Virus record (IMG/VR): IMGVR_UViG_3300026737_000001
DNA length: 64,000 nucleotides
Origin: a virus
Taxonomy: Duplodnaviria > Heunggongvirae > Uroviricota > Caudoviricetes
Direction: 5' to 3' (one strand)
The notes under the pieces were generated by a model. That model searched no databases, had not been told where the DNA came from, and was given only the letters and a program-made list of their open reading frames with translations. Position numbers and translations under genes: made by a program. Below, piece by piece: positions 1 to 18,878 of the stretch (the stretch's first letter is position 1; every line of letters begins with the position of its first letter).

Positions 1-1188
1 TTTGAGCATACATTCAGGCAGATTACACTAAAAGACGGCATTGAATATACGGCATGGGTTCAGGCTATCTATGAAAATAAAGATAGTCAGTGGATAAGCG
101 TCAGCGGGTTTATAGCCAATGATGACGGCACAGCCACTATAACAACCAAAGACCAGCACGACGCTCTTTTAGATGAGACTGTTAATTACAGAACAAAAGG
201 GGCTCCAACTAATGAGCCAACACCGACCAATATAGTTGTTAATGAAAACAGTAACGGTTCTTTAGATATTAGAGTCGAGTGGGCACCATATAGTCAGGGT
301 GCAAGAAAAGCAGATATGCTTATTCTTTTCTGGAAAAAAGGTGATGCTTCAGGTCTTGGGGTACCAACAACAGAAGATAGTAATGTTAGTTTTAGTGTGA
401 ACGAAAGCAATAGCGCGTACTACTTATTAGAAGGACTTGCTCCTAATACATTTTATAGATTTGGTATAGCAGCAGCAAGAAGAACAGAGAACGGATTAGA
501 GATTGGCAATATAGTAAGTCCTGTAAGCTGGACAGACGTTGATGTTGGTGATGCAACCATCAATCACGACAATGTAAATGGTTCAGCTGGTGGAGGGACA
601 TTCCTTTTAGACGAAAACGGTATTAGGCATACAAGCGGTAGTTTTAGTATAGACCCCGACGGAAACGCCCATTTTGAAGGCGAGATAGTAATTGGAGGTA
701 CAGCAACTTCAACCAATGACTTAGAAACACAATCAGGGGCACAAAGCAAAGCTGATTCTGCTGAAGAAAACGCTAAATCTTATTCAGAAAATGCTGTTGG
801 TGCTGTTGAAAATTGGACTTCTGATACAACAAATTACACAACTATTTCTGGTGGAGTAGTAAGGACAGGGCAGATTCAGTCAGAAAATTATGAACCACAA
901 ACAAAAGGAGCTCAGGTTGACCTAGATAGCGGCATTATAGATTTTGGTGGAAGATTATACTACGAACCAAACCTAGGATTACTTGTAAACGGAACCATTT
1001 ATGCAGAAGATGGATACATATCTGATGGTGTTACAGTAGGAGCAGAAGGCAAGTCGATACTCAAAACGATAAACGAATCAGTGAAAGAAAAGGTAAATGT
1101 AAAACCCGAAGGTGGTAAGTTGTGGCATTTTGACAAGCACTTCACATCCACCCAGGGAGAAATGATAACAATAATAAAACCAGTTTAA
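1..1188 (+). CDS. tail-fibre-like structural protein (5' partial; reading frame open from base 1)
   Basis: Frame 1 is open from nt 1 and contains the listed ORF 316..1188. The N-terminal segment 'FEHTFRQITLKDGIEYTAWVQ...ANDDGTATITT' is paralogous to the N-terminus of ORF 7951..9837. Gly/Thr/Ser-rich fibre-like composition. Confidence 0.55.
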   Translation, partial: FEHTFRQITLKDGIEYTAWVQAIYENKDSQWISVSGFIANDDGTATITTKDQHDALLDETVNYRTKGAPTNEPTPTNIVVNENSNGSLDIRVEWAPYSQGARKADMLILFWKKGDASGLGVPTTEDSNVSFSVNESNSAYYLLEGLAPNTFYRFGIAAARRTENGLEIGNIVSPVSWTDVDVGDATINHDNVNGSAGGGTFLLDENGIRHTSGSFSIDPDGNAHFEGEIVIGGTATSTNDLETQSGAQSKADSAEENAKSYSENAVGAVENWTSDTTNYTTISGGVVRTGQIQSENYEPQTKGAQVDLDSGIIDFGGRLYYEPNLGLLVNGTIYAEDGYISDGVTVGAEGKSILKTINESVKEKVNVKPEGGKLWHFDKHFTSTQGEMITIIKPV

Positions 1189-1191
1189 GGA

Positions 1192-1599
1192 GTGAGGATA
1201 ATGGCATTACATTTTTATCATGATGCAGCAGGTACTCAAGAAATAACAGAAGCAGATGTAGACCATGAAAGACTTGCTGATGTTGTAGGCAGTACTATTA
1301 TATCAGAAACACAAATTTATATAGGTTCAGATGACCCTAATTTAACATACGAAAATATAGTTGTCAGCACAGTAAATGATTTTGACCATACATCAAACGC
1401 AGGAGAGATTGACATAGAATATGCTTTAGACAGTAATGGAAGTCCAGGTACATACAATCAGGTTTTAAGTGTTCCAAATAATGATTTTGACCCACCTGTA
1501 CCTATCTGGAGAAAGATGACAGCACCAAACATAACAACCGCCTTTACAATAAGTAATATAGAACATCACATAGAAAATTATGACGAATATGTTAAGTAA
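1192..1599 (+). CDS. hypothetical structural protein
   Basis: ORF with RBS GGAGTGAGG immediately upstream and tight spacing to the fibre gene. Confidence 0.45.
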   Translation: MRIMALHFYHDAAGTQEITEADVDHERLADVVGSTIISETQIYIGSDDPNLTYENIVVSTVNDFDHTSNAGEIDIEYALDSNGSPGTYNQVLSVPNNDFDPPVPIWRKMTAPNITTAFTISNIEHHIENYDEYVK

Positions 1600-1648
1600 T
1601 TAGTTTAGTAATATTTATAATACTTAACAATAGAAAGGAGTTTTTAGC

Positions 1649-4600
1649 TTGTCATTAGACTACAGTATTGAGAGTAGAGATTGGGGTAATACAGATGTAA
1701 ATGTTAATGTAACTGACCCTGATGGGTTTAATGGGGTTAGGCATGATAACAAATATACTGCCCTTAATTTTGATGGTGTTGATGATTATGTAGAAATGTC
1801 TACAATAAGACCACAAACAGGAGCATTAACTATCAGTGCTTGGGTTAAGTTAAAATCATATTCAACTAATGGTGTTAGTTTTATAGGTGGTGAAGGAAAT
1901 ACTAGCAGTCTTGGATATTGGCTTGGTATCAGGAGCAGTGGAGAACCAACATTCGCATTAGAATCCCAACTCAATGCTAGTTCGAAAATTTCATTAAATG
2001 AACCAGTTTACATAACTGGTGTATGGGATGGCTTAGAGCAAAGAATTTATATAAATGGAGTTTTGAGCAACTCTATTTCAACCACAATAAGTGTAATTGA
2101 TTATACTGATATTGCACCATTTAGGTTGGCTAAAATTACATCACTTAATACTAACAGGCTTTGGTCCGGAAAAATAGGAAGATTTGAATTATGGGGCAAT
2201 GCATTAACCGAAACAGAAATAAATAAATATATGAGAAAAGCTCCATTTGGTACCGAGTCAGGCTTAATATCTTTTTGGGATATAAATAATAATAGCGGAA
2301 CAACAGTTTTTGACATGGCAGGAACAAATGACGGTACAATTTATGGAGCTACCTGGACAGATACTAATTTTTTGGAAGGTCAATTTAATAATGCAAAAGT
2401 TATTGATAATAATTTAGAACTAATAAGATTTAATAATTATGCTAGCTATAATATAGATAAAGATATTGTTGATTTATATAGTGGAACCAGATACCCTCCT
2501 GCTACTGATAACTATACATACAGAGATGATGGTAGAATATATTCTTCATTATATGTTCCAAGAGGTACTGAAAATATTATAGCAACAAAAGCAACTACAG
2601 CCTTGTGGGGGGCTGGAGGTTTTGAAGGTGGAGACTGTGAAGTTATAACTGACACAAGTTGTCCTGTTGGTGATGGAAAAGTTATTAAATTAGATGCAAC
2701 CACAAATACTAGCTTTGAAGATTTAGGCTCTGTTACATTTACAGATACAGAACTTAATACTGGAGATATATATACTCTATCTTGGTGGTTTAAGGGCAAT
2801 TCCCAACCGGCTTATGCTGATAGAATATACTACACTGATGGCACTTGGTCAAGGGCTACAAAAACGTGGAAATCTCAACCATCTCCTGACCCTAATAATT
2901 GGCAGTATTATGAAGTAGAGATGTTAATACAAGATAATGGAGGGAAGACATATTCTTCTTGGAAAGTACCAAGATTTTTTTATGGTTCTACTGATGATAC
3001 AAGCATTGGATATTTTTCACCATTCCAACTTGAAAAAAAGTCTTATGCAACAGACTTTATTAATGGCACTAGAACAGGTGCTGGATTATCTTATACTCCA
3101 TCATCTTTTGGAGTTGATTTTAATAGTAAAAATTGGACAGTAATGGCCTGGGTTAAATATGGAGAGACAATTACGGCTGGTACACGTTCAACAGCCTTTG
3201 AGCTTGGAAGTTACTATATAGCAGGAGAAACTGATATAGGTGTAGGCACTAGGACATCTACCAACAGACTTAATCTTTATGGTTATGAAAATAAAGCAGG
3301 GCAATTTGGAGGAGGTATTAACTTAACCCCATCAGAGGCTAAGGACTGGATATTAGTTGCTTTAACCTGCAATAGCTCTAAATTAACACTTCATACAGTG
3401 TCAAATGAAAGCGGCTATCAGAGTGTGACTGATGATGCAAATTGGGATACCTCTGCAAACCCTATTAGGGATAATTTATTTGTTGGCAGGTATGGGTGGA
3501 ACAATGGAGAAATTAATGGAAATATAGAGGATTTAGTTGTTGTTCCATATGAAATAACAGGCTCACAAATAGAAAAGATTGGTCTCCAGGCAGAAAATGC
3601 TGCTGGAATCTCAAGTGGCTCCTATATCTCAAAACAAATTGATTTGTCCAACATGAACAGTGTTTCAAATAGCAATATTTCATGGGGGTATGGTTTTAAT
3701 AATTCGTATTATATTGTTGGGACAGGGATGGAAGATAACAACTCAGCCCACAGCATATTAATTAATGGAGCAGAAAAATCACTAGATTCAAGAGGTTTAA
3801 ATTTAGTTAGGTTAGACAGTAACGGGGACTACATAGAAAGTAAGAGTTATGACACACATGGAAGTTCTGCAGAAAGTGATGCTTGTGCTACATATATAAA
3901 TGGGTTGCCAAATACTGATTATTTAATAGTTGCATCTCAAGACCAGGCTGCTGGGGCGGCTTCAGGAGCAAGTTCTGGTAATTTGACTCAATCCTGTATT
4001 GATGCTATAGCAAATAGACTTTCTAGCACATCTATATCTACTTTGGAATATAGAAGTAATTGGTTAATTTTCTCAAAAATAGATGGAGAAAAAATTGTTG
4101 AAAAGTATAGAAGTAGACAAACAGGGAATGTTAAGTGGGCTCATGACATAAGCGTGGAAACAAGTGCAGATAATCAAGCAACTTGGCAAAGTGTTAGTAA
4201 CGGAGGGCAAATTCAAAGTTCTATGAATTCAGCAGACTCCCTTTATATAAAGGCAACATTAAAAACTGAAGATGGAACAGTAAGTACTTTTTTAGATAGT
4301 CTGACAGTAGAGATAGAAACCCCGATTCAATATAAGTGGGATTCAAATACAACAACCCCCTCCTTGTGGGATGAAATAACAGCAAATCCTGTAACACAAT
4401 CTTCCGACGGAATCTGGTATTTGCATACAAAATATTTTGAAAATAATGAACCAGTTACTGAGTATAAAGGTACTTTCAATATTGACAAAACTCCGCCAGT
4501 ATCTCCAAATGTAACATTAGTAAATAATACCAGCCATTCACTTTCTCTAAGCTGGACGGCTGAAGACAGCCTGAGCGGCCTTGATTATGTCCGACTTTAT

Positions 4601-7600
4601 GTTCAAAAATCTGATTCAGGAAATGCTCATGTTGCCGATATAGATATTGATGGCAATGGAACAACTGAATACAGTCTTCCTATTGGAACTCAAACATCAT
4701 ATACGGTTGATGGGCTTGAAGAATATCAACATTACAGATATTATATTAGAGTTTATGATAAGGCTGGGAATATAGCAAATGATGGTTACCACCTAATGAT
4801 AACTGATGACATTACAGAACCTGTAGTAGGCTATAATTTAAATAGCAGAGACTGGCTAAACACAAATGTAGATGAGGTAATTAATGTTGATGACCAGGCG
4901 GGTTCTGGTGTAGCAGAGGCATGGTATAAGTGGACTAACTCAGCTGTTCAACCTACTGATGGATGGATTGTAATGGGAACAACTACTAATTTCAATACCT
5001 CTCAATCACAAGAAGGTGAATGGTATTTACACATCAAAGCAACTGATAATTATTCAAATACAGCCTATGACTACTCAGGACCGTACAAGATAGATAAAAC
5101 AGCACCAGTAATCAACTCAACCAATATAACGCTCGATTCACCAACAAATGTCTATGATACCTATACAGCAACAATAGAATGGGATGTAGAGGATGCTTAT
5201 AGTGGTGTTAATAAGACAGAGTTAGGATTTTATAAGGGGTCAAACGGCTTGGAGTTTGATGGTGTTAATGATTATGTGGATTGCGGAAATAGTACAGAAC
5301 TAGATATTACAGAGAGTATAACATTAGAGTGCTGGGTTAAAGGGAACCATCTTGGAAGTTGGGATAGGATTCTTGCCAAAGGATATGACAACTCATGGTT
5401 TTTGGGTACTTTTGATACTAATGGTACAGCAAGATTCAGGTTAGACTCTAACTCAAGCATGATAGCACAATTAGAAAGCAACACTATAATTCAAGATGGC
5501 AAATGGCATCACATTTCCGGAACTTATGATGGTGCTCAATTAAAGCTTTATATTGATGGAATTCTAGAAAATCAAACATCTGGTACTGGGCTTATAAATA
5601 TTGTTACATCTAATTTATATATTGGAGATGTAGACTTTACTTCCAGTTTTGCATATTCTGGTGTGGTAAAAGATGCAAGAATCTGGAACACAGCCAGAAC
5701 AGCCGACCAGATTAAAGATAATATGTACACCAAACTAACAGGCAACGAAACTGGCCTCGTCGCTTACTACCCAATGGACGAAGACACAGGAACCACCCTG
5801 ATAGACAAAGCAGGTTCTAATAACGGCACAATAAATGGTGCTACCTGGGATGAAGGTGGATGGTACTACGATGAAAACACCTTGCCTGATGGTATAACAA
5901 CTAATGTTGACATGGATAATATAACAGGTGGTGGTGTAAAGAGTGCTACTTTTAATAATATACCAAGAGAAGTAGAGATAGGTGCAGAGTTTAATGTAAT
6001 AGATAATGCTACTAATAATATTAAAAAAAGAAGTGATAATAATTGTTTAAGTTTTGATGGTGTTGATGATTATGTGAAAATAAATAATGTAGGATTTAAC
6101 TCAGAACAAATAACTATTGAGTTCTGGGCTAAAATAAACACATCTTCAGGTAAGAATTATGCTTTTGATACAGGGGACGAAAGAGACCCATTGATGAAGT
6201 GGGATGATGGTGACACTTCTGTAATAATTTGGGGGCTTGGTTCTACAGGATATACCAATTATTCCCAGGGTTATAAAATAGGTGAGTTTGCTCATTATGC
6301 TTTAACTTATGACAATTCTACTGAGAGATTATATATAAATGGAGATGAAGTTGATAGCAAAACAGGTTCAGAAATTGTAAATTTTGATGATTTATGGATA
6401 GGTAATTATAATAATTTAGGTTATTCAATTGATGGGCTTATTTACGATTTTCAAATCTGGAACAAAGCACTAACCCAAACAGAAATACAAAACTACATGC
6501 ACAACAAGCCTGACCCTAACGACCCTAACTTAGTTGCATACTACCCCTTCTCAGAAGGGAGTGGAAATACTCTCTATGATGTAACACCTAATAGTAATCA
6601 TGGAACTATTAATGGGGCTACATGGGAGAAAGAATATGATTATGCGCTTAGTTTTGATGGTAATGAGTATATTACTATACCAGATGTAGCTGAAGAAATA
6701 CATGGTGGAACAGAAGCTACTATTGAATTTTGGTGTAGAGCAGATGAATTATATTCAACCGGAAGTGGAATAGTTCAACTTTCTGGATTTGAAAGTACTA
6801 ATGGCAACTTATATCCTTATAATTCTTTTACTAAAGTGTACTTAGATGTTTTTAGAACTGACAGAATTGGCCCAATTTACACTAATTCTCCAGTAAATGA
6901 GCTTCATCATTTTGCAATAACAACAACTCCTGGAACTGACGGCTGGAGGTTTTATCAAAACGGAGAGCTGATTCATTCTGCTACTGGACCGGGTAGCGTA
7001 TCTGCTAATTATAATGATTTTACTCTTGGGTTTAATTCAGGAAACAGATATCTGCACGGAATAATGAATGATGTTAGAATCTGGAACACAGCCAGAACCC
7101 AAACCGAAATCCAGGAAAATATGCATAAAGAATTAACAGGTGACGAGTCTGGATTGGTTGCCTACTACAAGATGAACGAGTTTTCAGGCAACACTTTAAT
7201 CGACCACGCAGGTGATAATGACGGCCGGATAGAGGGAGCACACTGGGTTGATAAAGAAGGAAATGAGATTTATACACCAAGAATCATAAATGTTAGAACA
7301 GTAACAACTAATTCTGACTATGAAATGGGAATAAACTCAGATTATAAATCTCAAACAGAATACGAAACTGGTATCAACAAAGATTACCAGTCGCCAAGTT
7401 CTCAAATAATAGATGTTTTATCAAAGTCATACGATTCTCCTACACTCTACGAAATAGGTAAAAGAACAAATTATAAATCACAAACATTATATGAAGCAGG
7501 CATAAACAAAACAGAAGGTCCGGCACCTTCACTACAGGATATCTTGGTATTGTATGACGAACCTATCTTAGTAAGCGGTAAATTCTCGCAAGGCATAAGG

Positions 7601-7951
7601 CTAGGTCTATCAGACTTAGAAATTGATATCAGCGATTTTACTGAATGGACAATGCATGTATTTAGAAGAGGTATAGACGATAGTGAGTTTAGAACAATAT
7701 TCATCAACTCAAATGGAGAAGTTTATGTTGATAACGAAATAAACAATGAGTATGATGTTAGCTGGTTTGAGAGCACAAATGAAAAAATAACTATTAAAAG
7801 TGGGGCCATTGATATAGATGAGCTTTTAGTTTTTCCACAGATAATAGACCAAAAACAGATTGGCAGAATGGGTGGGTCACCGTTTTATGACCCTAACAGA
7901 AGTGTAAAAATTGATATGCCGGATTCAGTCGATATGGAGGTAATGCAATAA
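1649..7951 (+). CDS. giant (2100 aa) tail-fibre/adhesin protein with four LamG/ConA-like lectin repeats and FN3-like modules
   Basis: TTG start preceded by RBS AAAGGAG. Four repeats carry the 'L(N/E/S)FDGV(D/N)DYV' signature at aa ~43, ~1204, ~1468 and ~1667. The downstream motifs 'LVAYYP(M/F)' and 'NG(T/A)INGATW' are typical of LamG_3 domains. An FN3-like segment reads 'PPVSPNVTLVNNTSHSLSLSWTAEDSLSGLDYVRLYV'. Confidence 0.7.
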   Translation: MSLDYSIESRDWGNTDVNVNVTDPDGFNGVRHDNKYTALNFDGVDDYVEMSTIRPQTGALTISAWVKLKSYSTNGVSFIGGEGNTSSLGYWLGIRSSGEPTFALESQLNASSKISLNEPVYITGVWDGLEQRIYINGVLSNSISTTISVIDYTDIAPFRLAKITSLNTNRLWSGKIGRFELWGNALTETEINKYMRKAPFGTESGLISFWDINNNSGTTVFDMAGTNDGTIYGATWTDTNFLEGQFNNAKVIDNNLELIRFNNYASYNIDKDIVDLYSGTRYPPATDNYTYRDDGRIYSSLYVPRGTENIIATKATTALWGAGGFEGGDCEVITDTSCPVGDGKVIKLDATTNTSFEDLGSVTFTDTELNTGDIYTLSWWFKGNSQPAYADRIYYTDGTWSRATKTWKSQPSPDPNNWQYYEVEMLIQDNGGKTYSSWKVPRFFYGSTDDTSIGYFSPFQLEKKSYATDFINGTRTGAGLSYTPSSFGVDFNSKNWTVMAWVKYGETITAGTRSTAFELGSYYIAGETDIGVGTRTSTNRLNLYGYENKAGQFGGGINLTPSEAKDWILVALTCNSSKLTLHTVSNESGYQSVTDDANWDTSANPIRDNLFVGRYGWNNGEINGNIEDLVVVPYEITGSQIEKIGLQAENAAGISSGSYISKQIDLSNMNSVSNSNISWGYGFNNSYYIVGTGMEDNNSAHSILINGAEKSLDSRGLNLVRLDSNGDYIESKSYDTHGSSAESDACATYINGLPNTDYLIVASQDQAAGAASGASSGNLTQSCIDAIANRLSSTSISTLEYRSNWLIFSKIDGEKIVEKYRSRQTGNVKWAHDISVETSADNQATWQSVSNGGQIQSSMNSADSLYIKATLKTEDGTVSTFLDSLTVEIETPIQYKWDSNTTTPSLWDEITANPVTQSSDGIWYLHTKYFENNEPVTEYKGTFNIDKTPPVSPNVTLVNNTSHSLSLSWTAEDSLSGLDYVRLYVQKSDSGNAHVADIDIDGNGTTEYSLPIGTQTSYTVDGLEEYQHYRYYIRVYDKAGNIANDGYHLMITDDITEPVVGYNLNSRDWLNTNVDEVINVDDQAGSGVAEAWYKWTNSAVQPTDGWIVMGTTTNFNTSQSQEGEWYLHIKATDNYSNTAYDYSGPYKIDKTAPVINSTNITLDSPTNVYDTYTATIEWDVEDAYSGVNKTELGFYKGSNGLEFDGVNDYVDCGNSTELDITESITLECWVKGNHLGSWDRILAKGYDNSWFLGTFDTNGTARFRLDSNSSMIAQLESNTIIQDGKWHHISGTYDGAQLKLYIDGILENQTSGTGLINIVTSNLYIGDVDFTSSFAYSGVVKDARIWNTARTADQIKDNMYTKLTGNETGLVAYYPMDEDTGTTLIDKAGSNNGTINGATWDEGGWYYDENTLPDGITTNVDMDNITGGGVKSATFNNIPREVEIGAEFNVIDNATNNIKKRSDNNCLSFDGVDDYVKINNVGFNSEQITIEFWAKINTSSGKNYAFDTGDERDPLMKWDDGDTSVIIWGLGSTGYTNYSQGYKIGEFAHYALTYDNSTERLYINGDEVDSKTGSEIVNFDDLWIGNYNNLGYSIDGLIYDFQIWNKALTQTEIQNYMHNKPDPNDPNLVAYYPFSEGSGNTLYDVTPNSNHGTINGATWEKEYDYALSFDGNEYITIPDVAEEIHGGTEATIEFWCRADELYSTGSGIVQLSGFESTNGNLYPYNSFTKVYLDVFRTDRIGPIYTNSPVNELHHFAITTTPGTDGWRFYQNGELIHSATGPGSVSANYNDFTLGFNSGNRYLHGIMNDVRIWNTARTQTEIQENMHKELTGDESGLVAYYKMNEFSGNTLIDHAGDNDGRIEGAHWVDKEGNEIYTPRIINVRTVTTNSDYEMGINSDYKSQTEYETGINKDYQSPSSQIIDVLSKSYDSPTLYEIGKRTNYKSQTLYEAGINKTEGPAPSLQDILVLYDEPILVSGKFSQGIRLGLSDLEIDISDFTEWTMHVFRRGIDDSEFRTIFINSNGEVYVDNEINNEYDVSWFESTNEKITIKSGAIDIDELLVFPQIIDQKQIGRMGGSPFYDPNRSVKIDMPDSVDMEVMQ
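7310..7515 (+). repeat. degenerate short tandem peptide repeats (~'NxDYKSQTEYE(T/A)GINK') near the C-terminus of the giant protein
   Basis: Translated repeats 'INSDYKSQTEYETGINKDYQS...TNYKSQTLYEAGINKTEG' are visible by eye. Confidence 0.4.
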
Positions 7952-9837
7952 TGGCGAAGATACTTAAAGATATATATGTGTCTTGGACCTGGGAAGGAGA
8001 CGAAATGTTACTTGAGGGGTTTAATGTAGCAATAGCCCCCCAAGGCTCTGACCCTAACACAGAGGCAATAATTATACAAAAAACAAGTTCAGAAAAAACA
8101 GATATATTAAATAGAGGTACAACTCAGTACGAGCATATTTTTAGAAATATAACATTAAATAAAGACACAAACTACATAGCATGGGTTCAGTCTCTAACTG
8201 ATGGCTTTGATTCAGAATGGCTGTCAGCAACAGGTATCAACGTTTCTGATGATGGCAAAGCTACAATAGCTACTACTGATGCTGATGGCAACCCAATAAC
8301 TTCTTCTGGTGGAGATGTTACTATAGATTCAGCAGGTATAACTGTAGTAAATGGAGCTTTTAAACTAGTAAACTCTTCAGGCTCAATCACAATAGATAAC
8401 ACTGGTATAACAGCAAATGACGGCTCTAAAGACACATTCAAAATAGATAGTAATGGCAACGCATCATTTAGCGGTTCAGTAAATGTAGGCTCAAATATTG
8501 CCGGTATTGATACAAGCGCCGAAGACTTAGAAACAGTAAGTGGTTCTACATTAAAATCTTCAGGTTCTTGGCTACGGAATGGCTTTGAAGATGGAGAGTT
8601 TGATATGTGGTCTTCTGGAGTAGTTAGGGAAACAGATAGTTTTTCTGGGAATTATTCAGGGCTTTTTACTTCATCAAATACTTCTCCAGCTTCAAGTGGC
8701 TCCATTGGTGAACCTTCAATGACTATACCCGAAGAAATAGCACTAAGTTTGGCAGGTAAGAGAGTAAGAATTTCAGTTTTTGCTAAATGGCCAGAAGTAA
8801 ATGAGTCAAGCGAATTTGCTGTATCTTATTCAACAAATGACACTGGAAATAGTGGATGGCATCACTTTAATCAAGATATAGATTGGAAAAGATTTTCATT
8901 TTACTACACTGTTCCAGAGCCAGTTGCTGGAGGGGTTGATTATATTGGTATATGGGGTGACACATCTGGTTTGGGTGGTGGCGTTTTAATAGATAATGTC
9001 GTAATAGAAACTATGCCTGGTTCAGAAAATAATAGCATAATCATCGATGATGCTGGAATAAAAACTTTAGGTACAGATGGAGACTATTCAATATTAACAG
9101 ATGACTCTCTTATTTTTTATCAGAACGGGGTTTCAACACCTCATTACTATTCTAAAAGAGTTGCTTATGGAGTAGCCCAAGATGGTGACTATATTAATCT
9201 AGGGTGGAAAAATGAACCAAAAGTTTCTACTGCTATAAGGCAGTTAAGAAGTTACTCAGCTGGTTACCCCTCAAGAAATCAAACATATGAGTCTTATGCA
9301 TCCGGAATTGATGCTGACGGGTTTTATGTTTACGGTCGTTCAACAATTAAAGGTACTTCTGGCTCTACAGCAATTGGTGCCAAGATTTCGGCACAGGGTT
9401 CAGCTTATTCATATATGGGGTCATATTCATCAACAAACGATTCTGCTGCCTATAATACAACTACTGGCATAGTGGCAGGGGGCACTAGTTACTTAAAGAT
9501 TCAGTTTTATGTTAATAGCTCGTCTTCTCAACATTCAAGTCTAGCACCTAGGGGTGTTAGGATATATTACAAAATAGAGGGTGCTGGAAGCTGGACTCAT
9601 TATAAAAATTACCAAAATATTGGTGTCGGAAGATATTACTGCGAAATACCAGGATTAGCTGCTAATAGATATCAGGTAAGAATGTATGTATACGCAAATG
9701 CTTATGCTAATACAAATGAATTGGACACAAAAACTTCACAAATAACTGCAACACTCGAGAGTGTTTATTATACAGCTAACGAAACCACAATAGATTATGG
9801 AGATGTAATGTGGATTGCAGTTGAAGGAGGAGCTTAA
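7951..9837 (+). CDS. tail-fibre-like protein (paralogous N-terminal module to the ORF at 1..1188)
   Basis: The ATG overlaps the previous stop (TAATG). The N-terminus 'YEHIFRNITLNKDTNYIAWVQS...DDGKATIATT' matches the window-start ORF. Ser/Gly-rich. Confidence 0.6.
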   Translation: MAKILKDIYVSWTWEGDEMLLEGFNVAIAPQGSDPNTEAIIIQKTSSEKTDILNRGTTQYEHIFRNITLNKDTNYIAWVQSLTDGFDSEWLSATGINVSDDGKATIATTDADGNPITSSGGDVTIDSAGITVVNGAFKLVNSSGSITIDNTGITANDGSKDTFKIDSNGNASFSGSVNVGSNIAGIDTSAEDLETVSGSTLKSSGSWLRNGFEDGEFDMWSSGVVRETDSFSGNYSGLFTSSNTSPASSGSIGEPSMTIPEEIALSLAGKRVRISVFAKWPEVNESSEFAVSYSTNDTGNSGWHHFNQDIDWKRFSFYYTVPEPVAGGVDYIGIWGDTSGLGGGVLIDNVVIETMPGSENNSIIIDDAGIKTLGTDGDYSILTDDSLIFYQNGVSTPHYYSKRVAYGVAQDGDYINLGWKNEPKVSTAIRQLRSYSAGYPSRNQTYESYASGIDADGFYVYGRSTIKGTSGSTAIGAKISAQGSAYSYMGSYSSTNDSAAYNTTTGIVAGGTSYLKIQFYVNSSSSQHSSLAPRGVRIYYKIEGAGSWTHYKNYQNIGVGRYYCEIPGLAANRYQVRMYVYANAYANTNELDTKTSQITATLESVYYTANETTIDYGDVMWIAVEGGA

Positions 9838-10347
9838 ATGCCTAGCAGATTATTATTTGATAAAAGAAACAAAGAAATATTAAGGTGTCAGCCTGAACCC
9901 TTCGGTAGCGCAGGTCTTCCGAGTTTTGAAGCATTATGCAATTCTGCAAGGGTACCGCTTGATGAAATCCAATACATGAATACTATAGTTATAAACGAAG
10001 ATATACTTACAAGAGAGGCTAAATCAAATTTTTACTTAAGTGAAAATGATAATGGCAGTATTGTTCTGATAGAGAAGCCAGAAGCACTTATAGTTTTAGA
10101 AAATGAAATTATTAATATATCTGCCGATAATACAGCAACAATAAGAGTTTATTTAGACAATCTAAACTCTTATATAGATTATAGTTATGTAACACTTAAT
10201 ATTAACGGAGTTGAATTTAATGTAAAGATAGATATTAATACATATGAAGGCTTAAAGTATATAAAAATTGAAGAGGCAGGAGAGTATATAATATCAGGTA
10301 GTGATGACAGATTTAATATTAATGAAGTTATGATAAGTGCAGTTTAA
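9838..10347 (+). CDS. hypothetical structural/assembly protein
   Basis: ATG immediately after the preceding stop, so translationally coupled. Confidence 0.4.
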   Translation: MPSRLLFDKRNKEILRCQPEPFGSAGLPSFEALCNSARVPLDEIQYMNTIVINEDILTREAKSNFYLSENDNGSIVLIEKPEALIVLENEIINISADNTATIRVYLDNLNSYIDYSYVTLNINGVEFNVKIDINTYEGLKYIKIEEAGEYIISGSDDRFNINEVMISAV

Positions 10348-10371
10348 AACAAGAAATGGAGGTGTTGTTTT

Positions 10372-11238
10372 TTGCTAAAAAAAGGCATTGTTAGGCCAAT
10401 TGCATATGACGAAATAAGCCATAAGTTTTTACTAAAAAATATAAAAAACCATACACATACTGATTATATGAAGCAAAAAAATATGAGAAAATACTCAACA
10501 GAAGATTTGTATTTTATGTATAATTCATACATTAATTATAATTTAAGGAATTTACTTAATTTGAGCGTATTTGAATTTTCTTGGGAACATCCAAGCAAAA
10601 TAAAAAATAGAGATTTTGATATAGAAGAAAACTGGGTTATACAAGATAATACAGATATGTATTTGAGACAAACAAAAGAAAATAAAGTAAATTTAGGATT
10701 AGATATCTTAGAGAACGGAACTTACTGGCCAATAGTTGTTGAAGTAATAGATGGAGATTTATATGTATACGAGGGTAACCATAGAGCTTTTGCTATAAAA
10801 AAGATGGTAGAAACTGGCGATTGGCCAGAAGATAAAAAGGTGCTTTGTATGAGGGTTAATGGCGACTACCAAAGAATCAAAGCTAGAAAAAAAGTAATAG
10901 AATTAGAGAGACCAGTAAAACAGTTAGCTCCGTTTGTGACAATTTACGGAGATGAAAATAATAAAAAAGAGGATAGAGATTTTATAGAAAAGAACTTATT
11001 TAAATCTGATAATATTGAATTTCATAGTGATAAAAAAATACTATTAAAAAAAGAAGTTTATGACTATAGCAGCTTACTTTTTTTAACTCAAGCATTGCCT
11101 CACTGGATGAGAGATATTATATGGTTAAATCAAAATGATACAGGCACTCCAATAAAGTCAAGCAGAGTTGTTAATGATGAGAGTTTATGGAATAGATTTG
11201 TTGGAGGAGAAATTTTTAATGAAAATATAGATAATTAG
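10372..11238 (+). CDS. ParB/Srx-fold (ParB-like nuclease/NTPase domain) protein, paralog 1
   Basis: TTG start with RBS GGAGGTG at 10358. The motif 'NGTYWPIVVEVIDGDLYVYEGNHRAFAIKK' resembles the ParB N-domain GxxR/'DGHHR'-type motif. Paralogous to the next ORF, sharing 'YMYNSYINYNL', 'LGLDILENGTYWP', 'WPEDKK(V/M)LC' and 'HW(M/L)RDI(I/F)WL'. Confidence 0.5.
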   Translation: MLKKGIVRPIAYDEISHKFLLKNIKNHTHTDYMKQKNMRKYSTEDLYFMYNSYINYNLRNLLNLSVFEFSWEHPSKIKNRDFDIEENWVIQDNTDMYLRQTKENKVNLGLDILENGTYWPIVVEVIDGDLYVYEGNHRAFAIKKMVETGDWPEDKKVLCMRVNGDYQRIKARKKVIELERPVKQLAPFVTIYGDENNKKEDRDFIEKNLFKSDNIEFHSDKKILLKKEVYDYSSLLFLTQALPHWMRDIIWLNQNDTGTPIKSSRVVNDESLWNRFVGGEIFNENIDN

Positions 11239-11243
11239 CAAGG

Positions 11244-12119
11244 GTGGGACTATTGAACAGATATAATATAGATAGACTAAAGCTTGATTATGATGAAAGA
11301 AATGATAGGCATGTTCTGCCTGCACTTTACAGGCATTTACACACGGCGTATTTAAACCAGGAAAACTCATGTATATTTGATAAAGAATATATAAAATATA
11401 TGTACAATACATATATTAATTATAATTTGAAAAATATTTTAGAAGCTGAGCTTTTTAGGTTTTTATGGATTCACCCTAAATTTATTTATATAACAGAAAA
11501 GAAAAAGAAAGAAGAGCAGTGGGCAATGAGAAATCAAGCAAATCAATTTAAAGATGCTTACCTTGTAGAATCCAGGAACAATAAGGAAAAGTTAGGCTTG
11601 GACGTGTTAAAAAACGGTACTTACTGGCCACTAGTTATATCAGCCAGAAGGTATCAAAGATTGTTTTATGTCTATGAAGGTAGCCACCGAATGTTATCAA
11701 TAAGAAGCCTTTATAAAAATAATTTATGGCCAGAAGATAAAAAGATGTTATGTTTAAATATAATAACTAGAGATTTTTATGAATTAAAATATGGCAAGGA
11801 ATTTATAGAATTAAAAAAACCAATAGAACAAGTATTACCTTTTTCTGTAGTTTATGGAGACGAATATAATACACCAGACGGAAAAGAATTTGTTAAAGAT
11901 AAATGTTTTAAGAGAGATGGAGCTTCATTTTTTGACCCAAAGAAAGAACTAATTAAAATGAAAATATATAATTATAGCGACCTTTTGTATGCAAATCAAA
12001 GTATGTCACACTGGTTGAGAGATATATTTTGGCTTTATAAAGAAAATAATGAAGACATTATAAAACCAAGCAAAATAATAAATAGTGAAGATAAATGGAA
12101 TAAATTCATAGGGGGTTAA
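11244..12119 (+). CDS. ParB/Srx-fold protein, paralog 2
   Basis: GTG start (alternative TTG at 11253). 'YWPLVISARRYQRLFYVYEGSHRMLSIR' is the same motif family as paralog 1. Stop 1 nt before the next gene. Confidence 0.5.
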   Translation: MGLLNRYNIDRLKLDYDERNDRHVLPALYRHLHTAYLNQENSCIFDKEYIKYMYNTYINYNLKNILEAELFRFLWIHPKFIYITEKKKKEEQWAMRNQANQFKDAYLVESRNNKEKLGLDVLKNGTYWPLVISARRYQRLFYVYEGSHRMLSIRSLYKNNLWPEDKKMLCLNIITRDFYELKYGKEFIELKKPIEQVLPFSVVYGDEYNTPDGKEFVKDKCFKRDGASFFDPKKELIKMKIYNYSDLLYANQSMSHWLRDIFWLYKENNEDIIKPSKIINSEDKWNKFIGG

Positions 12120-12120
12120 A

Positions 12121-13026
12121 ATGCTTTCTCATATAAAAAGAATAGAGATAGAGATTAATGGGTATTGTAATAGAGAATGTCATTGGTGTCCAAACAAGGA
12201 TATTCAAAGAGATAAGAATCTTCCTATGCCGGAGGATACTTTTTTAAAATTAATCCAAGACCTTAAAAAAAATAATTTTAATAAAAATAAAAATAAAATA
12301 TTCAACAAGATTTCATTTAATAGATTTTCTGAGCCAATGGCAGATATTAAATTACTTAAAAAAAGGTCTAACCAATTAAAAAATATCCTTGATAACGTAT
12401 ATTTATACGTAAATACTAATGGCGACTTTTTAAACAAAAAGAATATTAGCAATCTTAATTTAGATAGAATAAATGTTATGGACTATGATTGCAGAGGTAC
12501 AGCATATGGTTTTGAGCTAATAAACAATCTAGGCCTAAAAGTTAGAAGATTTGACACTGAAAATAAATATATATCAGCTATAGATGATAACTCTTTTGAG
12601 TTAAGGTATTTTTATAATTGGCCTCTGAATAACAATATAGAAAATATAGCTGAACTTTTAGATATTGAAAACAAAATAAAAATTAAAGACCCTCATAATC
12701 ATGAGTACAAAAATATAGAGTGGCACAGCAACAGGAAAAGCAGACAAAGAAATAAAAAGTGCATAGAAATTTTTAATTATATTTCTATTGACTATAATGG
12801 TAACGTTATGCCTTGTTGCCATATGAGAAGTGATGCTAAAAAGCATGAGGATTTCATACTCGGAAATATAAACGAAAAAAGTATATCAAATATATATTAC
12901 TCAAAAAAATCTAAAAAATTTAGAAACATAATGCTTGGGAAAATTGATGATTACCCCAAAATATGCAAGAGATGTCATAAATATAGGGACAATGAAGAAA
13001 TTAAAAATATTAAGGAATGCTGGTGA
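12121..13026 (+). CDS. radical SAM enzyme with SPASM/twitch-like C-terminal Cys motif, paralog 1
   Basis: N-terminal CxxxCxxC 'GYCNRECHWCPNK' at aa 15-23, 'NTNGDF' core strand, and C-terminal 'YNGNVMPCCHMRSDAKKHEDFILGN...KICKRCHKY'. Confidence 0.65.
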   Translation: MLSHIKRIEIEINGYCNRECHWCPNKDIQRDKNLPMPEDTFLKLIQDLKKNNFNKNKNKIFNKISFNRFSEPMADIKLLKKRSNQLKNILDNVYLYVNTNGDFLNKKNISNLNLDRINVMDYDCRGTAYGFELINNLGLKVRRFDTENKYISAIDDNSFELRYFYNWPLNNNIENIAELLDIENKIKIKDPHNHEYKNIEWHSNRKSRQRNKKCIEIFNYISIDYNGNVMPCCHMRSDAKKHEDFILGNINEKSISNIYYSKKSKKFRNIMLGKIDDYPKICKRCHKYRDNEEIKNIKECW

Positions 13027-13030
13027 TATA

Positions 13031-13861
13031 ATGTTTTCTCATATTTCAGGTGTAGAAATAGCTTTCCACAGCCAGTGCAATAGAAAATGCGAGTGGTGCC
13101 CAAATAAATATATAGATAGAACTTTTTATAAAGAGTTTGATGAAGATATTTTTCTAAAATTATTAAGTGATTTAAAGGAAAACGGCTTCGGAGAAAAAGA
13201 CTCTTCTACAATATCTATTTCAAGATTTCATGAAGCATTTATTAATCCTGAGCTTGCAAGAAAAAGGTCAAAGCAAATAAAAAAAATACTTCCAGATGTT
13301 CATCTACTTATCAAATCTAATGGTGATTTTATAACAAAAGAAAACATAAAAGATATACCATTTGATAGGTTAAACATAATGGACTATGACGGTGTTGGAA
13401 GTGCAAGCTGTTTAATAAAAATAAATGATATAGGTTTTAATTTTGATTTTATAAGAGCTAAAAACTCATATATCCGCGCAAGGGATGAAAACTCAAGAAT
13501 TATTATATATAAATCTAACTGGAAGAGAAATGTAGAACTGGAGGATAGAGCTGGTTTATTAGACCCAAACTCAATAAATGATATGGAATGGATAAAGAAA
13601 GACAAAAAAAGAAATAGATTTTGTGGAGAGCCATTTAATACAATTATTGTTGATTATGATGGAAGTGTAATGCCTTGCTGCCACATGAGGCATGATGCAA
13701 AAAAGCATCAAGAATTTATATTAGGAAATCTTCATGAAAAAAGCATAGTTGAGATATATAAATCAGAAAAAGCTAAAAAAATAATGAAAAAATTCGAGAA
13801 AATAAAAACTATGCCAGGAGTTTGCACTTATTGCCATAAGCCTGAAGGGGGTAACAAATAA
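13031..13861 (+). CDS. radical SAM enzyme, paralog 2 (start moved from the listed 12935 to the conserved 'MFSHI')
   Basis: 'FHSQCNRKCEWCPNK', 'KSNGDF', 'YDGSVMPCCHMRHDAKKHQEFILGN...GVCTYCHKP'. The N-terminus aligns with paralogs 1 and 3 at ATG 13031. Confidence 0.6.
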   Translation: MFSHISGVEIAFHSQCNRKCEWCPNKYIDRTFYKEFDEDIFLKLLSDLKENGFGEKDSSTISISRFHEAFINPELARKRSKQIKKILPDVHLLIKSNGDFITKENIKDIPFDRLNIMDYDGVGSASCLIKINDIGFNFDFIRAKNSYIRARDENSRIIIYKSNWKRNVELEDRAGLLDPNSINDMEWIKKDKKRNRFCGEPFNTIIVDYDGSVMPCCHMRHDAKKHQEFILGNLHEKSIVEIYKSEKAKKIMKKFEKIKTMPGVCTYCHKPEGGNK

Positions 13862-13862
13862 A

Positions 13863-14735: not shown

Positions 14736-14746
14736 GAGGTGGTCAA

Positions 14747-14971: not shown

Positions 14972-15030
14972 GTTTTATGTTTAGTAATGTTTGATAAATA
15001 AAACTAAAAAAAGAAGGGAGGTGACTATAG

Positions 15031-15624: not shown

Positions 15625-15668
15625 AATTTTAATAGGGGGAGCATTTAAATAAAAAGGGTGACAAAAAG

Positions 15669-16292: not shown

Positions 16293-16308
16293 AAGGAGGC
16301 AAAGATAA

Positions 16309-17004: not shown

Positions 17005-17018
17005 GGAGTGGAGAGGCT

Positions 17019-18858: not shown

Positions 18859-18878
18859 AAAAAAGAAGGTGCGAATTT

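What the first reader, a model, noticed from the sequence alone, without database searches (positions are those of the whole stretch)
1..9837. Modular, paralogous receptor-binding proteins including a 2100-aa LamG-repeat adhesin
The partial ORF at the window start and ORF 7951..9837 share a conserved N-terminal anchor module ('(F/Y)EH(T/I)FR.ITL...AWVQ...DDG.ATI.TT') but diverge distally. This is the pattern expected for swappable host-range determinants. The 2100-aa protein between them carries four LamG/ConA-like repeats with 'FDGV(D/N)DYV...LVAYYP...NGTINGATW', an FN3-like module, and C-terminal degenerate tandem repeats around 7310-7515.
Basis: seen in the sequence. Interest (0 to 1): 0.5.

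Follow-up and report, generated by a model that had tools for sequence, protein, structure and literature searches.

The report
Modular tail-fibre locus of large phage
The first 10 kb of the window is the host-recognition (tail-fibre) gene cluster of a large uncultured phage: several fibre proteins share one undescribed ~100-residue N-terminal domain, while their outer, lectin-like parts are exchanged between near-identical relatives, which is a new example of a well-known design rather than a new principle.

Summary
Gene A (1-1188, cut by the window edge; 444 aa in full) and gene D (7951-9837) share an N-terminal module. It is 41% identical over 110 aligned columns in BLASTP (E 8e-24) and 44% in the MAFFT alignment. 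The 2100-aa protein C (1649-7951) has five Laminin_G_3 domains, not four, plus ILEI, FN3 and Ig-like domains and a degenerate repeat at 7318-7510.

The N-terminal module is an FN3-like beta-sandwich with no Pfam or PHROG family. It was not found in 50,697 deposited phage genomes. In 1.84 billion representative proteins it matches 122 clusters, almost always at residue 1, in proteins of about 100-2600 aa. Their distal parts include tail-fibre domains (Peptidase_S74, T4 gp36, Gp58, CBM, LamG).

Relatives about 97% identical in DNA keep A, B, the C terminus of C and the first 204 aa of D. They carry different C middles (three alleles) and different D distal parts (four alleles). A relative encodes four module-bearing paralogs directly after a lambda-J-like tail-tip gene.

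This is a new member of a known kind. The untested oddity: each module-bearing gene except A follows a gene ending in a conserved C-terminal LamG-like module.

The parts
1..1188 (+). Gene A, cut at its 5' end (395 of 444 aa). It is a conserved fibre protein made of the N-terminal FN3-like module, a DUF7359/FN3 domain and a beta-rich stem. It ends in the conserved peptide KPEGGKLWHFDKHFTSTQGE.
   Evidence: Translation. Full gene in L001 1904-3238. 98.4% aa identity to the relative's copy.
1..153 (+). 3' half of A's N-terminal module (FEHTFRQITL...DDGTATITTKD).
   Evidence: 49% identity to D 60-110, E 7e-13. Anchor HMM hit.
205..513 (+). DUF7359 / FN3 domain of A. D has no counterpart at this position.
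   Evidence: Pfam PF24058 E 2.8e-8 and PF00041 E 2.3e-6.
595..912 (+). Second block shared by A and D: a beta-rich 'IDxxGNAxFxG...DLETxSG' stem/linker.
   Evidence: BLASTP A199-304 against D144-251, E 4e-7.
1201..1599 (+). Gene B (132 aa from ATG 1201, preceded by AAGGAG). It has no known family and lies before the first C-like gene in the other lineages examined (directly so in L006 and L010/L011; one further ORF intervenes in L018).
   Evidence: Sequence and RBS. 99% identity in the relative. 47% identity to an ORF in L018 that follows an A-type end. No Pfam, PHROG or NCBIfam hit.
1649..7951 (+). Gene C (2100 aa; TTG start with AAAGGAG RBS). It is a giant multi-lectin fibre protein without the N-terminal module.
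1649..1699 (+). First 17 codons of C (MSLDYSIESRDWGNTDV), conserved in all three C alleles.
   Evidence: The near-identical DNA (97-98%) to L003 and L008 ends at 1673 and 1705.
1772..2224 (+). Laminin_G_3 domain 1 (aa 42-192).
   Evidence: Pfam E 4.5e-20.
3113..3571 (+). Laminin_G_3 domain 2, divergent (aa 489-641).
   Evidence: Pfam E 3.8e-6; 27.5 bits against a 27.6 cut-off.
3791..4072 (+). ILEI (FAM3/PANDER-like) domain (aa 715-808).
   Evidence: Pfam PF15711 E 4e-13.
4499..4771 (+). FN3 domain (aa 951-1041), flanked by Ig-like 'WYLHxK...IDKTPP' repeats at aa 895-950 and 1093-1153.
   Evidence: Pfam fn3 E 1.9e-8. Self-BLAST 895-950 / 1093-1153.
5258..5716 (+). Laminin_G_3 domain 3 (aa 1204-1356). 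The surrounding wC aa 1196-1401 are absent from the 1271-aa allele.
   Evidence: Pfam E 5.9e-28. Allele comparison.
6056..6490 (+). Laminin_G_3 domain 4 (aa 1470-1614). wC aa 1457-1867, which hold domains 4 and 5, are absent from the 1271-aa allele.
   Evidence: Pfam E 1.6e-25..
6656..7114 (+). Laminin_G_3 domain 5 (aa 1670-1822). wC aa 1457-1867, which hold domains 4 and 5, are absent from the 1271-aa allele.
   Evidence: Pfam E 3.8e-20..
7318..7510 (+). Degenerate repeat: two 64-nt copies, 75% identical and 129 nt apart, giving four 14-aa 'YExGINxxYKSQT' units.
   Evidence: TRF negative.
7559..7948 (+). C-terminal LamG-like 'tail module' of C (last ~130 aa: ...IDIDELLVFP...PFYDP...PDSVDMEVMQ).
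   Evidence: Tail-module HMM: 170 bits, ending at the last residue. The same module ends the J-like tip protein, the 743-, 878- and 532-aa paralogs and the C-like proteins of other lineages.
7316..8559 (+). Constant island inside the variable region: the last 212 aa of C plus the first 203 aa of D, 97% identical to relative L003.
   Evidence: blastn. In L008 the same left border applies, and identity then continues to 15795.
7951..9837 (+). Gene D (628 aa), a module-bearing fibre protein with an exchangeable distal part.
7951..8280 (+). N-terminal FN3-like module of D (aa 1-110).
   Evidence: Profile search. AlphaFold2 pLDDT 81-91 for residues 1-95. Top PDB matches are FN3 domains.
8578..9006 (+). 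Mobile beta-sandwich (CBM-like) domain of D (aa ~210-352).
   Evidence: 47-48% identity to a domain inside the 'host specificity protein J' of roseophages DSS3_PM1 and DSS3_VP1. 56-57% identity to unrelated fibre proteins P0013-15. Replaced in P0003-6.
9031..9360 (+). Family-conserved middle domain of D-type proteins (IDxxGIK...PHxYSKRVAYG...GFYVYG).
   Evidence: Alignment A1. 71% nt identity to L003.
9361..9834 (+). Variable C-terminal jelly-roll of D, ending in the conserved VMWIAVEGGA.
   Evidence: Alignment A1. AlphaFold2 pLDDT 77-89 for ~500-620. 14 of the 130 proteins collected in the two protein searches (12 of them among the 122 profile hits) share this C-terminus.
9838..10347 (+). Gene E (169 aa). 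It always follows D-type genes and diverges along with D's distal part. It is a candidate fibre chaperone or accessory protein (inferred).
   Evidence: 41% identity to the relative's copy, compared with 98% for the D N-terminus. Also present after D-like genes in L010 and L018. No family hit.

Best explanation
Window 1-10347 is the distal end of the tail-fibre (host-recognition) gene cluster of a >=188-kb, low-GC, uncultured tailed phage, probably of an anaerobic Bacillota host.

A and D belong to a set of at least 4-5 fibre paralogs. Each starts with the same ~100-residue FN3-like beta-sandwich followed by a 'DDGxATIxT' strand. The most likely role of this module is to plug each fibre into a common type of docking site on the tail tip or fibre apparatus. 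It also provides a stretch of conserved DNA at which recombination can exchange everything distal to it.

The distal parts are arrays of lectin-like beta-sandwich domains: LamG, ILEI, CBM-like and jelly-rolls. They most likely bind host surface glycans.

C is a 2100-aa multi-lectin fibre segment without the module. It is held by conserved ends (its first 17 aa and last 233 aa), while whole LamG domains are present or absent between alleles.

Shown: the domain content, the paralogy, the strictly N-terminal position of the module, the allelic replacement in near-identical relatives, and the position next to a lambda-J-like tip gene and before the endolysin.

Inferred: attachment to the virion, trimeric fibre structure, glycan binding and any effect on host range.
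For: Paralogy of the module:
- A against D: E 8e-24.
- In the relative L006 the gene order is J-like protein (Phage_Tail_Tip, LamG_3) -> 743 aa -> 878 aa -> ... -> A -> B -> C' -> D'. The 743-aa, 878-aa, A and D' proteins all start with the module.
- L015 has four module-bearing ORFs in 10.7 kb.

N-terminal position and diversity:
- 122 clusters in 1.84e9 representatives match, 86 of them at E <= 1e-10. Nearly all have the match at residues 1-~100 of proteins up to 2605 aa long.
- 47 of these proteins were scanned against Pfam. No Pfam model matched more than 5 of them, and none appears to cover the module itself. The distal parts hit Peptidase_S74 (5), Gp58 (3), Phage_T4_gp36 (2), CBM_4_9 (2), LamG_3 (2), ILEI (2), fn3 and DUF7359.

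Fold: pLDDT is 81-91 for residues 1-95, and the best PDB matches are canonical FN3 domains with target-normalised TM 0.55-0.60.

Swapping:
- The first 204 aa of D are 98% identical to D' and the rest is 0-43% identical.
- Four D distal alleles sit on a 97-98% identical N-terminus.
- Three C alleles exist, with LamG-containing segments present or absent.
- DNA identity falls from 97% to no BLAST match at 1673/1705, 7316 and 8559.
- D's central domain recurs at 47-57% identity in unrelated J-like fibre proteins, including those of roseophages.

Context: an Amidase_3 endolysin lies 5 kb downstream, and phage replication genes fill the rest of the window.
Against: - No experiment or structure shows that the module contacts the virion.
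- FN3/Ig-like domains on phages are often accessory rather than anchoring.
- Neither fold search returned a known phage anchor domain.
- The full-length D model is poor, with pLDDT 57, so the CBM-like assignment of its distal domains rests on weak Foldseek hits and on homology to J-like proteins.
- C, the largest candidate adhesin, lacks the module, so the module cannot be the only attachment device.
- The host is unknown. The only hint is one contig binned in a Halanaerobiales MAG.
Confidence: 0.7

Rival explanations
1. Head-to-tail joints. The FN3-like module does not dock on a common baseplate site. Instead it docks on the ~130-aa LamG-like 'tail module' at the C-terminus of the protein encoded just upstream. 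The cluster would then build one segmented or branched fibre whose gene order mirrors its assembly order: J-like tip -> 743 -> 878 -> (A-B-C) -> D.
For: - The tail module always lies at the extreme C-terminus.
- It ends the J-like tip protein itself, the 743-, 878/951- and 532-aa paralogs, all C alleles, and the C-like proteins of L005, L010, L012, L013, L014 and L018.
- At 11 distinct gene junctions in about 7 lineages, a module-bearing gene starts 0-21 nt after a tail-module gene. In L018 a free-standing 133-aa tail-module ORF sits immediately before the D-like gene.
- The only 97% island within the variable region is exactly the C tail plus the D N-terminus.
- Tail modules are conserved where receptor-binding tips would be expected to vary: 89-91% identity among C alleles.
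Against: - Tandem duplication of genes with an [N-module ... tail-module] layout produces the same adjacency without any interaction.
- A is an exception: it follows a 96-aa HAD-like ORF.
- Some tail-module genes are not followed by a module-bearing gene (878 aa in L006, 414 aa in L010).
- Only about 5 of the 114 proteins collected here that carry the module at their N-terminus also carry the tail module, so the pairing cannot be universal within single proteins.
Confidence: 0.2
2. The shared N-terminal domain is not an attachment device. It would be a generic accessory FN3/Ig-like domain (weak glycan binding, or a tag recognised by an assembly chaperone), kept similar among paralogs by gene conversion.
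For: - The fold is a plain FN3-like sandwich.
- FN3/Ig-like domains are common accessory decorations of phage structural proteins (established knowledge).
- A carries a further FN3/DUF7359 domain.
Against: - The domain is found almost exclusively at residue 1 of the protein in about 110 clusters, which is not expected for a shuffled accessory domain.
- Invariant positions (W12, G23-F24-N25, P35, V79-Q80, D87-S88, W90, D100-D101-G102) are kept at 25-60% overall identity.
- Paralogs within one genome are only 37-45% identical, so there has been no recent gene conversion.
Confidence: 0.08
3. A-D are not tail fibres. They would be other surface structures, such as capsid or neck fibres, or secreted adhesins encoded by the phage.
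For: - The virion location has not been shown.
- The LamG-repeat hits of C are mostly to bacterial surface proteins.
- The one PHROG hit that carries a functional label is a 'virion structural protein' filed under 'head and packaging'.
Against: - In the relative, the paralog array starts directly after a Phage_Tail_Tip (lambda J-like) gene.
- Family members carry Peptidase_S74, T4 gp36 and Gp58 tail-fibre domains.
- D's central domain is shared with 'host specificity protein J'.
- The cluster lies between tail genes and the endolysin, which is the usual place for fibres.
Confidence: 0.04

Closest known systems
Modular and branched receptor-binding-protein systems: Klebsiella podophages KP32/K11/KP34, Ackermannviridae, and E. 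coli tailspike phages (PMC13352976, PMC10408124)
   Same: - A conserved N-terminal structural part with exchangeable distal receptor-binding parts.
- Several RBPs per virion.
- Horizontal exchange of distal domains across phage lineages, with breakpoints at conserved sequence.
- An anchorless second RBP with a short conserved N-terminal peptide. Here, C keeps its first 17 aa across alleles.
   Different: - The N-terminal domain is an unrelated, undescribed FN3-like family with no Pfam or PHROG model, and it was not found in deposited phage genomes.
- The phage is a >=188-kb genome with a lambda-J-like tip, not a podophage.
- There are 4-5 paralogs carrying the same domain.
- No T4-gp10-like branching domain was detected in A.
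- A recurrent C-terminal LamG-like module has no described counterpart in those systems.
T4 long tail fibre gene set gp34-gp35-gp36-gp37-gp38 (established knowledge)
   Same: Contiguous genes might encode successive segments of one fibre plus a small trailing accessory or chaperone gene. The order A-B-C-D-E (conserved proximal protein, small protein, large segment, variable distal RBP, small co-varying protein) resembles 34-35-36-37-38.
   Different: - There is no sequence similarity in the window's own proteins.
- The segment joints are hypothetical here.
- The distal parts are lectin-domain arrays rather than an elongated fibrous shaft (T4 structure from memory, not checked here).
Lambda gpJ / 'host specificity protein J' central tail fibres
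   Same: - The relative's cluster begins with a 1486-aa Phage_Tail_Tip protein.
- D's central domain is 47-48% identical to a domain inside the 2575-aa J protein of roseophage DSS3_PM1.
- FN3 domains are used in both.
   Different: A, C and D are separate genes downstream of J, not part of it. The N-terminal module is not found in J proteins.
Bacterial tandem LamG_3 ('LamG-like jellyroll', DUF2341-type) surface proteins
   Same: C's LamG repeats carry the 'LVAYYPxDExSG...GTxxGATW ... LSFDGxDDYV' signature that I recall (from memory, not tested here) as typical of such proteins. They hit bacterial LamG proteins at 24-34% identity.
   Different: C sits in a phage fibre cluster. It combines LamG with ILEI, FN3 and Ig-like domains and the fibre-specific terminal module. 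The exact protein is known only from this phage, as one cluster of 4 sequences.

Membership tests
Pfam Laminin_G_3 (PF13385) | HMM score above the gathering cut-off (27.6 bits). | tested here: met
   The whole protein scores 303 bits with 5 stretches. Single domains score 72.8, 98.4, 90.5 and 73.0 bits. The fifth scores 27.5 bits, just under the cut-off.
Pfam fn3 (PF00041) | HMM score above 25 bits. | tested here: met
   C aa 951-1041 scores 29.6-34.8 bits. A aa 74-162 scores 28.2 bits.
Pfam ILEI (PF15711) | HMM score above 27 bits. | tested here: met
   C aa 715-808 scores 46-50 bits. The domain is also present in 2 of 47 module-bearing proteins elsewhere.
Pfam fn3, applied to the shared N-terminal module | Sequence match to the fn3 HMM. 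| tested here: not met
   D has no Pfam hit at E <= 0.01. Only the predicted fold resembles FN3: target-normalised TM 0.55-0.60, Foldseek E >= 6e-3.
Modular phage RBPs (conserved N-terminal anchor plus exchangeable distal domain) | The N-terminal part is conserved among paralogs and orthologs while the distal part differs. | tested here: met
Modular phage RBPs (conserved N-terminal anchor plus exchangeable distal domain) | Distal parts are exchanged between otherwise near-identical genomes. | tested here: met
   Flanks are 96-98% identical, with sharp drops at 1673/1705, 7316 and 8559. Four D alleles and three C alleles were found.
Modular phage RBPs (conserved N-terminal anchor plus exchangeable distal domain) | Encoded in the tail module next to tip or baseplate genes. 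| tested here: met
   In relative L006 a Phage_Tail_Tip protein directly precedes the paralog array. An endolysin lies downstream. The window itself starts too late to show the tip gene.
Modular phage RBPs (conserved N-terminal anchor plus exchangeable distal domain) | The N-terminal domain physically attaches the protein to the virion, and the distal domain binds the host receptor. | not testable with these tools
   This needs virion proteomics, cryo-EM and adsorption assays.
Branched RBP system of KP32 type (PMC13352976) | The primary RBP carries a branching domain, and the secondary RBP carries a short conserved docking peptide at its N-terminus. | tested here: inconclusive
   C alleles share only their first 17-30 aa at the N-terminus, which would fit a docking peptide. 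A shows only DUF7359/fn3 and no recognisable branching domain. No interaction test was possible.
Diversity-generating retroelement target (considered because of the repeats and the hypervariability) | A template/variable repeat pair that differs at adenines, with a nearby reverse transcriptase. | tested here: not met
   The 7318-7381 / 7447-7510 pair differs by substitutions of all base types (T>C, G>A, A>T, T>A, C>A). Both copies are conserved at 97% in L003. No RT was found among the ORFs scanned, though not every ORF of the window was scanned.

The most novel reading that the evidence does not exclude
The cluster may encode a self-assembling chain or tree of fibre segments joined by a two-part connector. 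The undescribed FN3-like N-terminal module of each protein would dock on the conserved C-terminal LamG-like 'tail module' of the protein encoded immediately upstream, beginning with the J-like tail-tip protein. A second joint type would use the conserved A-type C-terminal peptide (LWHFDxHxTSTxG), the small protein B and the conserved first 17 aa of C. Gene order would then equal assembly order. Recombination would exchange whole segments between connectors, and connector pairs such as 7316-8559 would be inherited together.
Probability: 0.2. Interest if true: 0.6.

Novelty: new member of a known kind. Interest (0 to 1): 0.4.

Why it matters
The locus defines a previously unnamed N-terminal domain family. 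It matched 122 clusters at 50% identity and is so far seen only in metagenomes. The domain marks tail-fibre genes in a clade of large uncultured phages and shows where their exchangeable host-recognition parts begin.

This has three practical uses:
- Annotating fibre genes that currently have no Pfam or PHROG label.
- Choosing fusion points for fibre engineering.
- Reading host-range variation in metagenomic populations.

The three C alleles also give a clean natural example of lectin (LamG) domains being present or absent within one fibre scaffold.

If the tail-module/N-module pairing proved to be a physical connector, it would be a new, portable joint for building multi-segment fibres. As it stands, the biology follows the established principle of modular phage receptor-binding proteins.

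Tried and rejected
- Near-identity search in deposited phages: megablast of 1-10000 against 50,697 phage records found nothing.
- tblastn of A (window part, and the first 232 aa of the full protein): no match.
- tblastn of D: only its central domain matched.
- PHROGs: no family for A, B, D or E.
- PDB sequence search: nothing useful for C or D.
- Full-length D AlphaFold2 model: pLDDT 57. Its Foldseek hits (CBM22, SGBP-B, lambda gpJ; TM <= 0.27) are only suggestive.
- Foldseek of the N-terminal module against BFVD viral models: nothing below E 0.06.
- TRF on 7000-8000: no tandem array.
- DGR idea: rejected, because the repeat mismatches are not adenine-specific.
- A-B read-through idea (A and B are in the same frame, separated by one TAA): rejected, because B has its own AAGGAG RBS and ATG at 1201 and the window has no tRNA.
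- C start: TTG 1649 has a proper RBS, so C is not a 5'-truncated call.
- The search for homologous proteins with C's last 233 aa: returned nothing, not even C itself. This looks like a limit of the word index, and the search was wasted.
- The same tool with full-length C: mostly generic LamG proteins, and it missed the relative's 1271-aa allele.
- IMG/VR: held only one related locus.
- Alignment A5: too diverse for the locus scan.
- Sample accessions: found in no paper.
- Literature search for LamG in phage fibres: nothing useful.

Full report
**What is there.**

On the + strand, the first 10.3 kb of the window holds five tightly packed genes:
- A: 1-1188, cut by the window edge.
- B: ATG 1201-1599, 132 aa.
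- C: TTG 1649-7951, 2100 aa.
- D: 7951-9837, 628 aa; its ATG overlaps C's stop codon.
- E: 9838-10347, 169 aa.

B and C are preceded by AAGGAG-type ribosome-binding sites.

The rest of the window is clearly phage DNA:
- An Amidase_3 endolysin at 15031-15624.
- A DnaE interrupted by an HTH/LAGLIDADG ORF.
- An NrdD carrying an intein.
- RecJ, DnaB, CTP synthase, a xanthine/uracil permease and TnpB.

An ENA contig of 188 kb (L001) is 100% identical to window 1-19837. The cluster holding D is recorded on a contig of up to 212,659 bp. The genome is therefore at least 188 kb. GC content is about 32%.

The closest deposited phage by DnaE is Moorella phage MTATph1, at only 50% aa identity. No deposited phage matches the region at the DNA level.

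**Checking the observation.**

The N-terminal similarity is real:
- BLASTP of the window part of A against D gives 49% identity over 51 aa (E 7e-13), plus a second block at E 4e-7.
- The full A protein (444 aa, from L001) aligns with D from the first methionine: 41% identity over 110 aligned columns, E 8e-24, and 44% in a multiple alignment with one 10-aa gap.

C matches Laminin_G_3 at E 4e-91. Scanning C in pieces gives this map:
- Laminin_G_3 at aa 42-192, 489-641 (borderline), 1204-1356, 1470-1614 and 1670-1822.
- ILEI at aa 715-808.
- fn3 at aa 951-1041.

Self-BLAST adds the four clear LamG copies and an Ig-like repeat at 895-950 / 1093-1153.

TRF does not detect the 'tandem repeats'. They do exist as a 64-nt direct repeat, 7318-7381 / 7447-7510, 75% identical. 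It encodes four 14-aa 'YExGINxxYKSQT' units.

**The shared N-terminal module.**

D has no Pfam match at E <= 0.01, and A matches only DUF7359/fn3 downstream of the module. Neither protein has a PHROG match at E <= 0.001.

A profile of the module was searched against 1.84 billion representative proteins:
- 122 clusters matched, 86 of them at E <= 1e-10.
- In nearly all, the match covers residues 1 to ~100 of the protein.
- The proteins range from about 100 to 2605 aa.

Pfam scans of 47 of these proteins gave no model for the module itself. Their distal regions hit classical fibre or spike domains: Peptidase_S74 (5), Gp58 (3), Phage_T4_gp36 (2), CBM_4_9 (2), LamG_3 (2), ILEI (2), fn3 and DUF7359 (5 each), and coiled coils.

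An AlphaFold2 model built on 70 homologues is confident for residues 1-95 (pLDDT 81-91). It is a six- to seven-strand beta-sandwich. Its best PDB matches are canonical FN3 domains, with target-normalised TM 0.55-0.60 and weak E-values. No viral model matches below E 0.06.

The module is rare in the collections searched:
- No match in 50,697 deposited phage genomes.
- One locus in IMG/VR.
- Nine loci in JGI metagenome contigs.
- One contig among the GTDB species representatives, binned in a Halanaerobiales MAG with GC 33.5%. This is only a weak host hint.

A ~97%-identical relative (L003/L006, a 147-kb contig) shows what lies upstream of the window. Its gene order is:
- a 1486-aa protein with Phage_Tail_Tip, LamG_3 and CarboxypepD_reg domains (lambda-J-like);
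- a 743-aa protein;
- an 878-aa protein;
- an island of SPASM, cytidylyltransferase, TnpB and HAD-like genes;
- then A, B, a 94-aa ORF, C' and D'.

The 743- and 878-aa proteins begin with the same module. Another relative (L015) has four module-bearing ORFs in 10.7 kb. Paralogs within one genome are 37-45% identical in the module.

**Module exchange.**

Against L003, the window's DNA identity runs as follows:

| Window coordinates | Identity to L003 |
|---|---|
| 1-1673 | 97% |
| 1674-7315 | only patches (77-81%) |
| 7316-8559 | 97% |
| 8560-14788 | absent or 64-75% |
| from 14789 | 96% |

At the protein level:
- A is 98% identical and B is 99% identical.
- D is 98% identical for residues 1-204. 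It then has no match for residues 205-360 and 43% identity for 361-628.
- The protein database holds four D alleles (628, 607, 635 and 685 aa) on a 97-98% identical N-terminal third.

D's central domain (aa ~210-352) recurs elsewhere:
- at 56-57% identity in unrelated fibre proteins (P0013-15);
- at 47-48% identity inside the 2575-aa 'host specificity protein J' of roseophage DSS3_PM1.

The domain has therefore moved between very different phage lineages.

C has three alleles:
- 2100 aa in the window.
- 2236 aa in L008, which otherwise keeps the window's D and downstream genes at 98%.
- 1271 aa in L003.

All three share the first 17 aa, an FN3/Ig-like backbone (44-65% identity) and the last 233 aa (89-91% identity). 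Relative to the 1271-aa allele, the window's LamG 3 (aa 1196-1401) and LamG 4-5 (aa 1457-1867) are clean domain-sized insertions or deletions.

**A recurrent C-terminal module and conserved gene order.**

The last ~130 aa of C (...IDELLVFP...PFYDP...PDSVDMEVMQ) form a LamG-like module. The same module also ends:
- the J-like tip protein;
- the 743-, 878/951- and 532-aa paralogs;
- the C-like proteins of six other loci.

It is always found at the extreme C-terminus.

At 11 distinct junctions in about seven lineages, a gene starting with the N-terminal module begins 0-21 nt after a gene ending in this tail module. In L018 a free-standing 133-aa tail-module ORF occupies that position. A is the only exception.

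A-type proteins instead end in a conserved peptide (KPEGGKLWHFDKHFTSTQGE). The same ending is seen in L010, L018, P0027 and P0038.

The order A-end, B, C-like, D-like, E-like is kept in the Halanaerobiales-binned contig at only ~35-55% aa identity.

**Interpretation.**

The best-supported reading (about 0.7) has three parts:
- This is a multi-fibre host-recognition cluster.
- An FN3-like N-terminal module serves as the constant, virion-proximal part of several paralogous fibres.
- Lectin-like distal domains are exchanged by recombination.

The principle is well established for other phages: anchor, branching-domain and conserved-peptide systems in Klebsiella podophages (PMC13352976), and tailspike mosaicism with recombination motifs (PMC10408124).

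The new elements here are the domain family itself and its use in 4-5 paralogs of a large uncultured phage.

The tail-module/N-module adjacency, together with the jointly conserved island at 7316-8559, suggests a head-to-tail connector and a segmented fibre analogous to T4 gp34-38 (about 0.2). Tandem duplication of [N-module...tail-module] genes explains the same adjacency, and I could not test the interaction.

Two other rivals are less likely, given the strict N-terminal position, the fibre domains in family members and the J-like neighbour:
- the module is a mere accessory FN3 domain;
- the proteins are not tail components.

A DGR mechanism is excluded for the repeats.

**Verdict.**

- Novelty is 'new member of a known kind', meaning an undescribed anchor-type domain family.
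- Interest is moderate (0.4).

Noticed in passing
window 10372-14735 (+): Five tandem ~290-aa paralogs follow genes D and E. Two have no known family (10372-11238 and 11244-12119; 40% identical to each other). Three are radical SAM/SPASM proteins (12121-13026, 12935-13861, 13863-14735), with weak NCBIfam hits to peptide-maturase-type rSAM families. The block is as diverged between relatives (64-75% nt identity or no match) as the fibre distal parts, and its GC is lower (0.28) than that of the fibre genes (0.35-0.38). Related loci carry rSAM, methyltransferase, glycosyltransferase and cytidylyltransferase genes in or next to the fibre cluster (L014, L006). These may be fibre- or glycan-modifying enzymes.
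   Followed up: partly
window 8578-9006 (D aa ~210-352); L017 (MN602267.1): A beta-sandwich domain of D is 47-48% identical to a domain inside the 2575-aa 'host specificity protein J' of roseophage DSS3_PM1 (Naomviridae). It is 56-57% identical to unrelated metagenomic fibre proteins. This points to domain transfer between very distant phage lineages.
   Followed up: partly
L003 5882-6166 = L006 11911-12195; L018 5865-6263: Small ORFs (94 and 133 aa) consist only of the C-terminal tail module. They are 44% and 35% identical to the end of C. They could be a remnant of a replaced allele or a functional stand-alone piece. In L018 the ORF sits immediately before the D-like gene.
   Followed up: partly
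window 1090-1188 (end of A); L010 148-654; L018 1-690: A-type fibre proteins end in a strongly conserved peptide, KP(E/D)..(K/Y)LWHFD.H.TST.G. In paralogs, the same motif forms the first strand of the terminal LamG-like module. The reason these proteins stop right after this strand is unexplained; a trans-complementing strand is one possibility.
   Followed up: no
L001 119-1273 (-), about 630 bp upstream of A's start codon (about 780 bp before the window's first base); window 26964-28085 (-): TnpB / Cas12f-like (OrfB_IS605 + TNB) genes. One is inserted in the fibre cluster between the 878-aa paralog and A, together with SPASM, cytidylyltransferase and HAD-like genes. Another lies in the replication region.
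   Followed up: no
window 38108-42713 (-): The DNA polymerase III alpha gene is split into two ORFs (40737-42713: PHP + NTPase + finger; 38108-39181: finger end + HHH + OB). An intervening 381-aa ORF (39336-40481) has multiple HTH motifs and a weak LAGLIDADG match, so it looks like a homing-endonuclease insertion.
   Followed up: no
window 49622-52663 (-): The anaerobic ribonucleotide reductase NrdD (1013 aa) carries an intein with a LAGLIDADG domain (Intein_splicing at aa 436-720).
   Followed up: no
window 28475-30154 (-), 46200-47387 (-), 15669-16292 (+), 17019-18128 (+): Host-like metabolic genes: CTP synthase, a xanthine/uracil permease, a truncated NeuB-like protein (207 aa) and an alpha-amylase-family protein beside the endolysin.
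   Followed up: no
window ~20000: GC skew changes sign at about 20 kb (positive for 1-20 kb, negative for 20-64 kb), coinciding with the switch from + strand to - strand genes.
   Followed up: no
L003 20391-20810 (-); L004 11647-12018 (-) (relatives; the ~96%-identical stretch corresponds to about window 20.2-20.6 kb): A small RF-1-domain protein (123-139 aa, PF00472) is encoded just past the fibre and lysis region in the relatives. No sign of stop-codon recoding was seen in the fibre genes, and no tRNA is present in the window.
   Followed up: no
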